This document shows, piece by piece, positions 9,842 through 38,587 of a stretch of DNA of 64,000 bases. The position numbers and the translations under genes were made by a program. The number at the start of each line of letters is the position of its first letter. Position 1 is the stretch's first letter. Origin of the DNA: a virus (Duplodnaviria; Caudoviricetes). The notes under the pieces are model-generated. The model was not told the origin of the DNA. It worked only from the letters and a program-made list of their open reading frames with translations, and did not search any database. The DNA lies in the IMG/VR virus record IMGVR_UViG_3300033463_000010, positions 128,001-192,000 of that record; one strand, 5' to 3'.

Positions 9842-9935
9842 ATCGTGTTATCCTTGTCGGGAGTTTATAATAAATATATAACAATTTACTATAATCTGCC
9901 AACAGGTAATCCACAGAATGCTGTCAAAAATGTAG

Positions 9936-10022
9936 CGGAGCGGGCAGGATTCGGACCTGCGGTGAGCAAAACCCACGGCTCTTTAGCAAAGAACTGCCAT
10001 AGACCAGCTAGGCGACCACTCC
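9936..10022 (-). tRNA. tRNA-Ser(GCT)
   Basis: GGAGTGG/CCGCTCC acceptor, loop TT-GCT-AA, long variable arm, T-loop TCCGAAT; no encoded CCA. Confidence 0.9.
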
Positions 10023-10033
10023 AAAAATGTTAG

Positions 10034-10116
10034 TGCCGATTGCAGGATTCGGACCTACGAAGACTTGCGTCGGGTGATTTACAGTCACCTGCCTTTGACC
10101 GCTAGGCTAAATCGGC
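10034..10116 (-). tRNA. tRNA-Tyr(GTA)
   Basis: GCCGATT/AATCGGC acceptor, GGTGA-CT-GTA-AA-TCACC, long variable arm, T-loop TCCGAAT. Confidence 0.92.
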
Positions 10117-10124
10117 ATTGTTAG

Positions 10125-10198
10125 CTCTACCGCCACGATTCGGACGTGGACTCTCAACGCTTAACAGGCGTGGGTTTTACCAATTAAACTACGGCAGA
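10125..10198 (-). tRNA. tRNA-Asn(GTT)
   Basis: TCTGCCG/CGGTAGA acceptor, G73, loop CT-GTT-AA, T-loop TCCGAAT. Confidence 0.88.
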
Positions 10199-10204
10199 AT
10201 AATT

Positions 10205-10279
10205 CGGGGAAAGTGTGGGAGTCGGACCCACCTCACACATACCGTGATATGTGCAGTTCACCACGACGCTAAAGTTCCC
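10205..10279 (-). pseudogene. Degenerate tRNA-like element, anticodon not assignable
   Basis: Intact T-arm GTGGG-TCCGACT-CCCAC, two mismatches in the acceptor stem, 7-bp anticodon-like stem with a 6-nt loop TCACGG. Confidence 0.55.
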
Positions 10280-10292
10280 AAAAATGTTTTCG

Positions 10293-10401
10293 TGGACACC
10301 CTCCGATTTGAACGGAGCGTTCCGTAATACTTTCGCAGCGTCCTATCCTTTCTTTTGGCGTTTTGCGATACCTTACGGCAGGTCCCGTAGCCACGGTGCC
10401 C
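10293..10401 (-). ncRNA. 109-nt tmRNA-like (tRNA-like domain) RNA
   Basis: GGGCACC/GGTGTCC-A acceptor with G3:U70 and A73, no D-stem, long interrupted helix in place of the anticodon arm, T-arm CTCCG-TTCAAAT-CGGAG. Confidence 0.6.
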
Positions 10402-10412
10402 AAAATGTTTCG

Positions 10413-10485
10413 TGGAGCGTATCGGACTTGAACCGATGACCTCCCGCTTGCAGGGCGGGCGTTCTACCAACTGAACTAACGTCCC
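10413..10485 (-). tRNA. tRNA-Ala(TGC)
   Basis: G3:U70, A73, CCCGC-CC-TGC-AA-GCGGG, T-loop TTCAAGT. Confidence 0.88.
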
Positions 10486-10489
10486 ATAG

Positions 10490-10562
10490 TAGTTCCATAG
10501 GGATTCGGACCCTAGTCGCTAGGTTGAAAACCTAGTGTCCTAGACCACTAGACGATGGAACC
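10490..10562 (-). tRNA. tRNA-Glu(TTC)
   Basis: GGTTCCA/TGGAACT acceptor, CTAGG-TT-TTC-AA-CCTAG, T-loop TCCGAAT. Confidence 0.92.
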
Positions 10563-10574
10563 ATAATTTGTTCG

Positions 10575-10649
10575 TGCGACGGGGTGGATTTGAACCACCG
10601 ACACGAGGATTTTCAGTCCCCTGCTCTACCAGGCTGAAGCTACCGCCAC
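10575..10649 (-). tRNA. tRNA-Phe(GAA)
   Basis: GTGGCGG/CCGTCGC acceptor, GGGGA-CT-GAA-AA-TCCTC, T-loop TTCAAAT. Confidence 0.92.
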
Positions 10650-15633: not shown

Positions 15634-17570
15634 ACGTGATACAGCTCCCCATATTCAGCACAGCATTTTACTTCGTTCCAAATTTGGTCCGAAATTTCTT
15701 CAATTTCGGGGTGCTGCTGAAAGGCTTCCCAAAGGGGCTTCGGGTCGTAACATACGTCCACGGGCTTTTGGCAGAACGCAACGATAGCTTCGGGTGTTCC
15801 TTCGGGGAACGTGAACTTGTCGTCACGTTCGTGGACCTTGCCGAACATATACGTCGGGTTGATAAGGCTCTTTTCAACTTTCTTTGCGTCTTCAACAAAC
15901 TGCGAATTGAGAACGGCACCGAAGCACTGTGTCGCAATTTTTTCAACTTCTTCGTAATAGCGGGGATAGCTTGAGCTACCGCCCCAACTAAAATCTACTC
16001 CCATACCTATGCCTCCTTTTCGGGATAAAGTTCTTTTAAGTTCTTACACGCTTTGGCGATTTGCATAATCCTGGCTAACTTGTCGTTGTATGCCTGCATA
16101 GCCTTGATAGATTCTGCACGTTCGTCAAAGTCTTCCTGGTTCAAGTCTGCGTCTAGCACGGCTCCCGATTGGGCAAGCACTTCGGCTGCATACTCAAACA
16201 GACGCTTGTCAATCTTGTCGGGGTCGTCCGTCGTCAAGTGGACGATTGTTTCAGCCCCCGTGTCCCTGGTGTCTGCGAAACAAAGGACTGACACTTCGTA
16301 GGACGGTTTCTTGTCAAAGAAACCCGTGCGGTTCCAAATGTTAAACTGAAACTTTACAGCGTTGAACCTTTCCCTGGAATAGTCCCCTACAAGGTAAGTG
16401 GACGGTTTGTCGTAACAGTCCATATTCCAACCGTTACCGCAGTGACCGATAGGGACCAACGCCTTTTCATTGGTTATCCTATACCAAACGTCAAAGAAAA
16501 ACTTTGAAGTCCCGATACGTTGGGGTCCGAAAATTTTTTCATTCTTGCATACGTCGTGCATAATCAAATCCTTACGGGTAAATGTCCATAACAAGCGGGT
16601 TTCGCTTGTAGCCTGGTCCCGAAATATCCCCCAGGATATACGTGACAGTAAAATTCAGCATTTTCAAGAAATGCGGGGCGAACCTGGGTAGGTCCGAACA
16701 TTCGTCCTGGTAGGCGAACTTCTTACGGGAATCCCCGAAGATAATGTCCGAATAAATCGGGAACGCCTGGTGTGCGTCAACGGGGTTTAGCCCACACAGG
16801 CTATCCAATCGTTTCAGCAAATCCGTAACGTCCGCAGGCGTGAGAATGAAACGCCACTCTTCGTTCTTCGGACGCAGTTTGTAACCCTGGCTCTTGTCGG
16901 ACTTGACAAGGGACTTCCTGTGACGATTGAGAAGCCATTGAGCCAAAACCTTGCTGCGGGAACTTCCCGTGTAAAGGTGCGGTAGCTTTTCAATAGAAGC
17001 CATTTCCTTGAGTGAGTTCACCTTACGCATAAGCGAGAACCACTTGTCAAACTCCGCAGGGGTCACGACCTTGTAAACAGGGATTTCCTCCTTGACGGAT
17101 TTAGCGGAACGCTTACCGTCAAAGACCTCATCCCATTCACGGTTGAGGCGTTCCGTGTCTGCGTCAAACACGGACTGATACTTTTCGTAAAGTTCCTGCT
17201 GATACTTGTCAAACGCATCATCAGCCTTTAAGTAGTTCTTAAAGGAATGTGCGTCCACACGATACCAATAAATGCTGCTGCCCATATACTATACCTCCAG
17301 GCGGTCAAATTCCCCGCCCTTGTCACCCCAGGCTACACCTGCGAACTTTTCCACCCAGGGCTTTTCCGATACAAGCGTAGCCCAAATGTGGATATAGAAC
17401 TTCTGCGTGGAACCCATAGTGAACGTGCGGTAGAAACACCCGCTGTCAGTGACCTTGTAGCCAAAGCCCTTCAAGCGTTCGTATGCTTGTTCAAGCGTAA
17501 TCCTGTTGAACCGCAGTTCCGCAGCCAGGTCTTGTGCGAAAGAAATAAATGCGTCCTTGATTGTGGACAT
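15627..17570 (-). other. Four hypothetical CDSs
   Basis: 15627-16004, 16007-16594, 16572-17285, 17289-17570. Confidence 0.65.
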
Positions 17571-33570: not shown

Positions 33571-33609
33571 AAAAATAAAGCGGGCGGGTCGTTGCAATCA
33601 ACCCGCCCT
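33571..33609 (-). terminator. Intrinsic terminator
   Basis: GGGCGGGTTG-loop-CGACCCGCCC followed by GCTTTATTTTT. Confidence 0.8.
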
Positions 33610-34010
33610 ACCACAATCGCCACTCTACTCTTTTCGTTGGGACCTACGTCAGTCATAGGTCGGTCCCGTAGGGAACTTCCCTCGCAAGAGTCCTACAAGT
33701 CGCTTTATTAGCCACGGCTGCGGTTCCCGTGAAGCCCCTGGGTCCGACAGGGCTTTATCGGAGCGTTTTTAGTTAGGATTACGCACAACCCCCCAGGTCC
33801 GTTTAGCCACCTGTTTGGCGATAGCAGCACCCGCTAGAATCGGACTAGCAGCCTTATGGGGGAACAACCTACTACGGGCTTCGGTTTCTATTACCCCATT
33901 CAGCAGCACACACCCCTTGCAAGGGGTATGCCATTTATGGTGGAAGCACCAACTTCTCGGCAGGCATAACGTTTGCAACCGCTACACAAGCCTATCCACC
34001 CAAGTGCTGT
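33610..34010 (-). ncRNA. Putative structured ncRNA(s) with a tRNA-like acceptor and T-arm
   Basis: Lies between a class II promoter motif and a terminator, no credible ORF, many hairpins, AGCACTT/GGGTGCT acceptor plus GCTAG-TCCGATT-CTAGC T-arm. Confidence 0.6.
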
Positions 34011-34033
34011 AATTCTAATATAGCAAGATAGCG

Positions 34034-34717
34034 TCAAACTCCGATATTCCCGAACAGGTAGAACGGACCTGTAAGTTGTCGGAGGCGTTGGTTCGCCACG
34101 TCGTAGTATTCCTTGCACAGTTCGGTCCCGATAAACTTTCGGGCTTCCAACACGGCTGCTTCTGCCGTGGTCCCGCTTCCAATGCAGGGGTCAAACACTA
34201 TATCCCCGTGGTTTGAACTAGCCCGTATGAGCCGTCTAAACAGGTCCAGGGGCTTTTCCGTCGGGTGACGCTTGCTAGACTCGCAGGGGTGTCGCCATAC
34301 GGGGGATTGGCAGAACTCATTGAACGTTGCGTTGGACTTACGCATAAACACGCAGCATTCCACGGACGATAGCCAAAGGTGCTGCCCGTTCATAGGCGAG
34401 GGGTTCGTCTTTTCCCAAATACAGAGCCTTGTAGAAAGCCCCTTGTCAACGCCCGCCTTACGCAGCATAGACACCTGTTCGGTTCCACAGAAAATATAAA
34501 TGCTCCCCTTACAGATACGGATTACCTCGTCCATAAACTTGTCAAGCGGGAACGTTAGAACGTCGGCAGCTTCCTTGTTAATGTGACGCAGCCCGCCTTC
34601 TTCACGGTCGGAACATTCGTCGTAGGGAATATCCGTCAAGACCATATCCACGCAGTTGTCTTCTAGCCTTGCCATATATTCCAGGCAATCCATATTATAG
34701 AGTTTGTTCAATTCCAC
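34034..34717 (-). CDS. DNA methyltransferase (N4-C/N6-A, beta class)
   Basis: TDIPY, HPTEKP, FDPCIGSGTT. Confidence 0.92.
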   Translation of the reverse strand: MELNKLYNMDCLEYMARLEDNCVDMVLTDIPYDECSDREEGGLRHINKEAADVLTFPLDKFMDEVIRICKGSIYIFCGTEQVSMLRKAGVDKGLSTRLCIWEKTNPSPMNGQHLWLSSVECCVFMRKSNATFNEFCQSPVWRHPCESSKRHPTEKPLDLFRRLIRASSNHGDIVFDPCIGSGTTAEAAVLEARKFIGTELCKEYYDVANQRLRQLTGPFYLFGNIGV

Positions 34718-38461: not shown

Positions 38462-38502
38462 AAGGGTTCCTTTTGTTTAAGGGTTAATCGGGTTAAAAAT
38501 AA

Positions 38503-38575
38503 TGGACGTGACAGGGCTTGAACCTGTAACCGTCGGGTTATGAGTCCGATGCACTAACCATTGTGCTACACGTCC
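38503..38575 (-). tRNA. tRNA with CAT anticodon (Ile2 or elongator Met)
   Basis: GGACGTG/CACGTCC-A acceptor, loop CT-CAT-AA, T-loop TTCAAGC; stand-alone, outside the attenuated cluster. Confidence 0.88.
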
Positions 38576-38587
38576 ATTTCAGCCTAG

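What the first reader, a model, noticed from the sequence alone, without database searches (positions are those of the whole stretch)
33571..34035. Roughly 430-nt independently transcribed structured RNA with a tRNA-like end
Seen: class II promoter motif (34019-34035), no credible ORF, terminator at 33571-33609. Domain 1 (34008-33825) is closed by an acceptor-like stem AGCACTT/GGGTGCT next to a T-arm GCTAG-TCCGATT-CTAGC, which has the same TCCGA T-loop variant as the real tRNAs. It encloses about 150 nt with CTTGTG/CATAAG, TATGCC/GGCATA, ACCCCTT-GCAA-GGGGT and ATGGGG/CCCCAT helices. Domain 2 (33822-33616) is closed by ATCGCCA/TGGCGAT and holds at least five hairpins (e.g. AAGCCCTG/CAGGGGCTT, GACCTATG/CGTAGGTC). 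Inference: a possibly new phage ncRNA that uses a tRNA mimic for processing, or acts as a decoy.
Basis: partly seen in the sequence, partly recalled or inferred. Interest (0 to 1): 0.7.

Follow-up and report, generated by a model that had tools for sequence, protein, structure and literature searches.

The report
Oversized tRNA-shaped phage RNA plus partner
A large rumen bacterial virus carries a small transcription unit of two uncatalogued folded RNAs: the first is a 184-base molecule with the ends of a transfer RNA but three oversized arms, so it cannot read the genetic code, and it belongs to an old, unexplained class of phage tRNA look-alikes.

Summary
The stretch is real non-coding RNA, but it is two separable RNAs, not one 430-nt molecule. 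D1 (34008-33825) is a tRNA-shaped RNA: 8-bp acceptor, 4-bp T-stem, three enlarged arms, two UUGCAA loops, and the same N73-CUA end as this phage's tRNA genes. In ten homologs (55-99% identical), 94% of cells pair and 36 of 50 pairs show compensatory changes; no reading frame is conserved. D1 occurs without D2 in tRNA arrays of 53-kb and 132-kb phages. Sister phages put a tRNA-Met or a 290-codon ORF between D1 and D2. D2's 3' core also covaries (11 of 16 pairs) and occurs without D1, once behind its own promoter. Neither part matches Rfam, T4 RNAC/D or T5 stable RNAs, but T4 RNAC and T5 RNA1/RNA2 are the same kind of thing. Rumen metatranscriptome contigs cover the unit (weak support). Likeliest mechanism (inferred): host tRNA enzymes cut D1 out using its tRNA ends; the invariant body does the work. 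This scan already reported this operon in a sister phage (e1-3253504). Verdict: new family of a known, unexplained kind.

The parts
34017..34037 (-). Phage promoter motif (second class), -10-like TATATT at 34022-34017; transcription would start 1-3 nt before D1
   Evidence: 12 similar sites in the genome against 0-1 in shuffles; the -10 element lies at the same distance in L002, L003, L118, L138, L101. Activity not tested.
33825..34008 (-). D1: 184-nt tRNA-shaped RNA, five-helix junction (acceptor, P2, P3, P4/P5, T-arm)
   Evidence: Covariation; model R1 finds held-out members L138-L140 at 151-153 bits; single copy in this genome
34001..34008 (-). Acceptor stem 5' strand (8 bp with 33833-33826)
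   Evidence: 100% paired in 10 sequences, 4 of 8 pairs with double changes; the outermost pair is often G-U, so five members may be 7/4 plus discriminator
33939..34000 (-). P2, in the place of the D-arm: 6-bp stem, asymmetric loop with a T-loop-like pentamer (33959-33955) and a D-loop-like TGG (33951-33949), long hairpin with 8-nt loop R-TTGCAA-R (33979-33972)
   Evidence: P2a 6 of 6 pairs compensatory; motifs aligned. The motif roles are inference.
33908..33931 (-). P3, in the place of the anticodon arm: 9-bp stem with 6-nt self-complementary loop TTGCAA (33922-33917); not a 7-nt anticodon loop
   Evidence: 8 of 9 pairs compensatory; loop TTGCAA or TTGCAT in all members
33852..33903 (-). P4/P5, in the place of a long variable arm: invariant TAATAGA internal loop and a GAA/AGTA loop-E-like hairpin
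   Evidence: Most invariant stretch of the family; flanking pairs covary
33834..33848 (-). T-arm: 4-bp stem, 7-nt loop TCCGATT; C56 and G57 invariant in the family, positions 54, 55 and 58 relaxed
33822..33825 (-). Discriminator G73 followed by CTA, the non-CCA end pattern of this phage's tRNA genes
   Evidence: All 7 called tRNA genes end N73-CTA, -CGA or -TTA; homolog ends
33610..33821 (-). D2: second structured RNA, about 210 nt, clade-restricted
   Evidence: Conserved in L002, L003, L118 at about 91% column identity; separated from D1 by other genes in relatives
33705..33812 (-). D2 5' insert; structure unresolved, absent from the short D2 versions
   Evidence: Only four close homologs, little covariation; z +0.4 alone; absent in L001, L138, L148
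33619..33704 (-). D2 core: stem, U-G pair, invariant GTAGG/A internal loop (33696-33692), 6-bp stem (33691-33686 with 33632-33627), three-way junction with two variable hairpins
   Evidence: 94% paired, 11 of 16 pairs with double changes in 9 sequences
33571..33609 (-). Intrinsic terminator; a strong sigma-70-type promoter for the next operon follows at 33548-33520
   Evidence: a terminator of unrelated sequence stands in the same place in L001, L123, L138, L148

Best explanation
The unit is a short RNA operon. One transcript starts just before 34008 and ends at the terminator. Host tRNA-maturation enzymes treat D1's acceptor/T-arm as a pre-tRNA (RNase P at the 5' end where there is a leader; 3' trimming to G73 and CCA addition), which releases D1 as a stable 184-187-nt RNA and leaves D2 as a second RNA protected by its closing stem and the terminator. 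D1 cannot decode. Its tRNA half is a maturation and stability handle; the selected function lies in the invariant body (two UUGCAA loops that kiss within one molecule or between molecules, a T-loop-like motif, and the P4/P5 loop-E module), most likely a compact fold or oligomer that binds a host protein during infection. Shown: the fold, the separability, the tRNA-gene-like end and context, no ORF. Inferred: processing, stability, kissing, the partner.
For: Covariation in every arm. D1 follows tRNA or tRNA-like genes after N-CTA spacers in L085, L092, L094, L097, L098 and precedes tRNA-Met in L002, L101, L138, so it is laid out like a tRNA gene. Its 3' end matches the phage's tRNA ends, and no CCA-adding enzyme of PF01743 is encoded. 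Invariant columns cluster in the body, while acceptor sequence, discriminator (G, A or C) and T-loop positions 54/55/58 vary, which argues for shape, not amino-acid identity. Precedent for RNase P acting on CCA-less phage dimeric precursors and on non-tRNA RNAs: PMC11143913. Metatranscriptome contigs from two studies bridge the D1/D2 junction (X3 33602-33925, X6 33728-33895).
Against: No raw reads, so ends, strand and level are unmeasured, and DNA may be in those libraries. The kissing loops are invariant, so there is no covariation for them. P2a follows the acceptor with no U8/A9 linker, so a tRNA-like elbow is not assured; L138-L140 have a damaged T-stem. No partner protein was identified. 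D1 is absent from two near-complete sister genomes, so it is optional.
Confidence: 0.5

Rival explanations
1. D1 is a tRNA decoy: the matured RNA presents an acceptor/T-arm and anticodon-like loops (U-UGC-AA reads like Ala, UU-GCA-AA like Cys) to soak up host tRNA-cleaving or tRNA-modifying defence enzymes.
For: tRNA shape kept by compensatory change; patchy presence and spread across phages of 53, 132 and 213 kb, as expected of a counter-defence accessory; both loops hold anticodon-like sequence.
Against: The loops are 6 and 8 nt, not 7, and are palindromic, which kissing explains as well; a decoy does not need the invariant P4/P5 module; no link to a defence system was tested.
Confidence: 0.2
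2. D1 is an elaborated (8/4) allo-tRNA or tRNA-Ser that is still charged with serine (long V-like arm, G73) and used outside decoding, or binds EF-Tu.
For: 8/4 branch and 6-bp D-like stem; G73 in 7 of 11 members; (8/4) tRNA-Ser occurs in phages and bovine rumen bacteria, and SerRS reads long V-arm plus G73 (PMC5389517).
Against: A73 or C73 in three members; five members look 7/4; junction linkers differ from allo-tRNA; Rfam and ARAGORN do not score it as tRNA.
Confidence: 0.12
3. One reading: a single 430-nt two-domain RNA, or D1 as a mere processing signal that releases D2.
For: One promoter and one terminator; direct D1-D2 adjacency here and in L003; RNA contigs bridge the junction.
Against: tRNA-Met or a 290-codon ORF lies between the parts in L002, L138, L118; D1 alone in L085, L092, L094, L097, L098, L101; D2 core without D1 in L001, L123, L125, L148.
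Confidence: 0.08
4. Decayed tRNA debris or chance structure with no function.
For: Optional in sister phages; modest single-sequence z-scores (-2.2 and -1.8).
Against: 118 compensatory cells against 40 in shuffles and 17-30 in slid controls; length held at 182-189 nt at about 62% identity.
Confidence: 0.03

Closest known systems
Phage tRNA-like stable RNAs: T5 RNA1 (144 nt) and RNA2 (125 nt), T4 RNAC/species 1 (139 nt) and RNAD
   Same: Lie in tRNA clusters, function unknown (annotations; PMC9697503, PMC3014915); RNA1, RNA2 and RNAC fold with paired ends, a 3' T-arm and an enlarged middle. T4 and T5 clusters also hold free-standing endonuclease genes, like the ORF in L118's spacer may be.
   Different: No homology: R1 gives only tRNA-end matches (at most 13.7 bits; RNAC 5.4) against 150-190 for members. 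D1 is larger, has an 8/4 branch, three enlarged arms and two palindromic loops.
(8/4) allo-tRNA and (8/4) tRNA-Ser (Mukai et al., PMC5389517)
   Same: 12-bp acceptor branch split 8/4, long D-like stem, long V-like arm, mostly G73; reported in phages and rumen bacteria.
   Different: D1 is about twice as long, has no 7-nt anticodon loop, no linker between acceptor and D-like stem, and a 6-7-nt linker before P3.
GOLLD (RF02032) and ROOL (RF03087)
   Same: Phage RNAs near tRNA islands, unknown function, kissing loops that build RNA-only multimers (bioRxiv 10.1101/2024.12.08.627333); ROOL is rumen-derived by name.
   Different: Several times larger; no Rfam match; D1 is itself framed by tRNA ends.
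Bacterial Y RNA YrlA
   Same: tRNA-mimicking non-coding RNA, also in phages; one is cut by RNase P and gains CCA (PMC4201824).
   Different: YrlA is encoded next to Ro60; no TROVE gene in five phage genomes; in YrlA the acceptor-like stem is an internal hairpin, in D1 it joins the two ends.

Membership tests
Canonical tRNA (RF00005) | 7/5 acceptor branch, D-arm, 5-bp anticodon stem with 7-nt loop, about 75-95 nt | tested here: not met
   8/4 branch, 6-nt loop on a 9-bp stem, 184 nt; no ARAGORN or Rfam call
(8/4) allo-tRNA | 8-bp acceptor plus 4-bp T-stem | tested here: met
   outermost pair weak in five members
(8/4) allo-tRNA | Cloverleaf with D tetraloop and an anticodon loop that can decode | tested here: not met
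   D-like loop carries a long inserted hairpin; P3 loop is 6 nt in most members
(8/4) allo-tRNA | Aminoacylation (Ser or Ala) | not testable with these tools
   needs an in vitro charging assay
T4 RNAC/RNAD and T5 RNA1/RNA2/RNAX | Sequence or covariance-model homology | tested here: not met
   blastn of the unit against 50,697 phage records found nothing
Phage tRNA-like stable RNAs (as a kind) | Acceptor and T-arm framing a non-tRNA body, in tRNA gene context | tested here: met
Phage tRNA-like stable RNAs (as a kind) | Accumulates as a discrete stable RNA with processed ends | tested here: inconclusive
   Only assembled contigs were available; they cover the unit but cannot show ends
tmRNA (RF00023) | G3-U70 alanine identity and tag reading frame | tested here: not met
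   No such pair in the acceptor, no conserved frame; a true tmRNA is a separate gene near D1 in G006
YrlA Y RNA | Adjacent Ro60/TROVE gene and Rfam match | tested here: not met
GOLLD / ROOL | Rfam model match | tested here: not met
GOLLD / ROOL | RNA-only multimer through kissing loops | not testable with these tools
   Two self-complementary loops are present but invariant
HDV-like or other small ribozyme (D2 core) | Nested double pseudoknot with L3, P1.1 and J4/2 cytosine, or an Rfam match | tested here: not met
   Covariation supports a nested stem-loop-stem with a three-way junction; the candidate P1 pairing is not kept in L001, L123, L148; no credible Rfam match for three versions
Intron-containing tRNA (group I) | Removal of the insert leaves a cloverleaf; group I core | tested here: not met
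   Insert is spread over three arms; no Rfam intron match; ARAGORN with introns allowed does not call it

The most novel reading that the evidence does not exclude
D1 self-assembles through its two palindromic loops into an RNA-only oligomer that displays several tRNA elbows and CCA ends, and acts as a multivalent sponge for tRNA-targeting anti-phage enzymes; it would be one of a swappable set of kissing-loop tRNA derivatives in rumen phages and would give the first function for the T4/T5 class of tRNA-like stable RNAs.
Probability: 0.12. Interest if true: 0.82.

Novelty: new variant of a known kind. Interest (0 to 1): 0.5.

Why it matters
Phage tRNA-like stable RNAs have been annotated in T4 and T5 for decades with no function. 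D1 is a new family of this kind with an unusually well supported structure, so mutations can be designed rationally: acceptor/T-arm against body, loop against loop. Its neighbours in other phages include an intermediate form that keeps a normal D-arm and has compensatory kissing loops, which suggests how tRNAs are remodelled into non-coding RNAs. It is small enough for cryo-EM or crystallography and for in vitro processing and charging assays. The limits: the phages are uncultured, the host is not established, and the family is small and so far found only in rumen-type data.

Tried and rejected
Rfam at gathering and E-value thresholds on the window, on L138, L148 and on six array loci: only tRNA and tmRNA. 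blastn against phage and plasmid collections: nothing. Exact T-arm pattern in viral contigs: 0. Methylase neighbour as bait: mostly unrelated loci. Looser D1 and D2 patterns added only chance matches; 18 of 19 genome contigs matches were chance, and the real one (L118) looks like a phage contig in a Clostridia bin. ORF 33769-33978 and other frames: not conserved. Link to the phage's reverse transcriptase: it is a DGR 144 kb away, and D1 occurs in two phages without an RT. Ro60, RtcB, RNA ligase and CCA enzyme: none in five genomes. Host: only sub-threshold Fibrobacter major-domain matches and a Clostridia bin label; not settled. Depth of contig X3-12 (80, against 2-18 for other contigs) is not used as an expression measure, as the tool warns; parts without cover show nothing. 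An R2 match of 17.9 bits inside T5 hegC on the opposite strand was taken as chance and not followed. Fremin 2023 (PMC10690425) supplements are not held, so overlap with its 10,006 candidates could not be checked. Literature searches found no description of this family.

Full report
Setting. The window is positions 128001-192000 of a 213,231-base phage record. The locus lies on the minus strand after genes for a gp32-like single-strand binding protein, a RecA/UvsX and a DNA methylase. Close relatives come from IMG/VR, ENA and Logan contigs, and the sequencing runs that hold the stretch are mostly sheep and cattle gut samples. The host is not established; a Fibrobacter major-domain match below threshold is a weak hint.

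Observation. The promoter motif, terminator, acceptor stem and T-arm are there. The motif recurs 12 times in the genome against 0-1 in shuffles. The 440 bases fold better than 100 of 100 shuffles. Rfam and ARAGORN call nothing here.

Two RNAs, not one. In L002 and L138 a tRNA-Met gene lies between domain 1 (D1) and domain 2 (D2); in L118 a 290-codon ORF lies there. D1 occurs without D2 in L085, L092, L094, L095, L097, L098 and L101, after or before tRNA-type genes. Two of these are complete records of 53 and 132 kb with other neighbours, and model R2 finds no D2 core in them. The D2 core occurs without an adjacent D1 after tRNA-Met in L001, after a short ORF in L123 and L125, and behind its own promoter in L148. 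The complete genome G001 has the D2 core and no D1; G008 has neither. Both parts are optional cassettes in a slot at the end of the recA operon.

Structure of D1. Ten homologs, 55-99% identical (mean 66%), support 50 pairs: 94.4% of cells pair, 36 pairs show changes on both sides, and slid controls fall to about 44%. Relatedness can inflate the shuffle control, but the count-based measures and the slid controls agree, and L138-L140, which were not in the model, score 151-153 bits. The fold is a five-helix junction in cloverleaf order. The acceptor has 8 pairs and the T-stem 4; the outermost pair is weak in five members, which may be 7/4 with a discriminator. P2 replaces the D-arm and holds a T-loop-like pentamer with a lone closing pair in most members, followed by a D-loop-like TGG. 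P3 replaces the anticodon arm and has a 6-nt loop. P4/P5 replaces the variable arm and is the most invariant part. P2 and P3 both end in the palindrome TTGCAA (TTGCAT in P3 of two members). Lengths are 182-189 and no frame is conserved. The gene ends G73-CTA, as this phage's tRNA genes end N73-CTA, -CGA or -TTA.

Structure of D2. The 3' core has an outer stem, an invariant U-G pair, a GTAGG/A internal loop, a 6-bp stem and a three-way junction; 11 of 16 pairs show double changes in nine sequences. The 5' insert is found in four close genomes only and its fold is unresolved. I could not assign D2 to any riboswitch or ribozyme family. My reading is a small trans-acting RNA or a protein-binding 3' element; the own-promoter copy in L148 favours a free RNA.

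Expression. Metatranscriptome contigs from three studies cover parts of the unit: 33602-33925 (X3), 33794-33998 (X1), 33728-33895 (X6). X3 and X6 bridge the D1/D2 junction with more than 31 bases on each side. Contigs cannot show strand, ends or level, and DNA can be present, so this is weak support for a common precursor.

Mechanism. Shown: fold, separability, tRNA-gene-like ends and context, lack of coding. From established tRNA biology: RNase P processes CCA-less phage precursors and several non-tRNA RNAs (PMC11143913). The phage encodes no PF01743 CCA enzyme, so maturation would be by the host. Inferred: the tRNA half is a handle for cutting and stabilising D1, because acceptor sequence, discriminator and T-loop positions 54, 55 and 58 vary while C56, G57 and the body stay fixed. 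The function then lies in the body, which probably folds or oligomerises through the two loops and binds a host protein. I give this 0.5. A tRNA decoy against tRNA-targeting defence gets 0.2, a charged allo-tRNA derivative 0.12, the single-RNA view 0.08, debris 0.03. Kissing has no covariation support in D1 itself. Indirect support comes from a neighbouring tRNA-like family in L085, L092, L094 and L097, which keeps a normal D-arm and whose two enlarged loops stay complementary in three different sequences.

Comparison. D1 works like, as far as anyone knows, the tRNA-like stable RNAs of T5 (RNA1, RNA2) and T4 (RNAC): tRNA ends, odd middle, tRNA cluster, function unknown. It is not homologous to them. 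It shares the 8/4 branch with allo-tRNAs, which are reported from phages and rumen bacteria (PMC5389517), but fails the decoding features. It is not tmRNA, YrlA, GOLLD or ROOL.

Novelty and verdict. Both RNAs are uncatalogued in Rfam 15, and my literature searches found no description; overlap with the Fremin 2023 candidate set could not be checked. An earlier agent of this scan reported the same operon in a sister phage (e1-3253504); I had reached the two-RNA reading before seeing it. D1 is a new family within a known, unexplained kind. Interest 0.5.

Noticed in passing
window:10289-10402 (-): About 110-nt tRNA-like RNA inside the phage's tRNA array, missed by ARAGORN and Rfam: 7-8-bp acceptor, 5-bp T-stem, enlarged middle arm, ends A-CGA like its neighbours.
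   Followed up: partly
window:10203-10280 (-): About 75-nt uncalled tRNA-like gene with T-arm and acceptor but an over-long anticodon-arm stem and a weak D-arm.
   Followed up: partly
L085:1576-1694, L092:6311-6428, L094:1782-1898, L097:1827-1943: Second tRNA-derived family directly upstream of D1: normal D- and T-arms, enlarged anticodon and variable arms whose loops are complementary in three different sequence versions.
   Followed up: partly
L134:3600-6710 (G006, 132-kb phage): About 3-kb nearly ORF-free island with tmRNA (tag AAPVAQAA), tRNA-Met, D1, another roughly 170-nt RNA ending in a T-arm, odd tRNAs and further structured sequence with no Rfam match.
   Followed up: no
G000:16318-18373 (outside the window): Diversity-generating retroelement: reverse transcriptase gene, template repeat 16996-17124 and variable repeat 16318-16446 with all 22 mismatches at adenines.
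   Followed up: partly
L118:5831-6703: AT-rich 290-codon ORF with its own -10-like element inserted between D1 and D2; no NCBIfam or PHROG match; possibly a homing endonuclease.
   Followed up: partly
window tRNA genes 9935-10649 and 38502-38576: No tRNA gene encodes CCA (all end N73-CTA, -CGA or -TTA) and four have C instead of U at T-loop position 55.
   Followed up: partly
window:33520-33548 and about 25 other sites in the genome: A highly repeated strong promoter class (TTGACA, 17 nt with a conserved spacer, TATATT) beside a second class of about 12 sites.
   Followed up: no
L123:3720-3835, L125:11405-11465: Other hairpin-rich sequence stands upstream of the D2 core in these sister phages, unrelated to the window's D2 5' insert.
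   Followed up: no
window:29895-31133 (-): TnpB/IS605 OrfB gene with many 73-92% identical relatives, several on 100-224-kb contigs.
   Followed up: no
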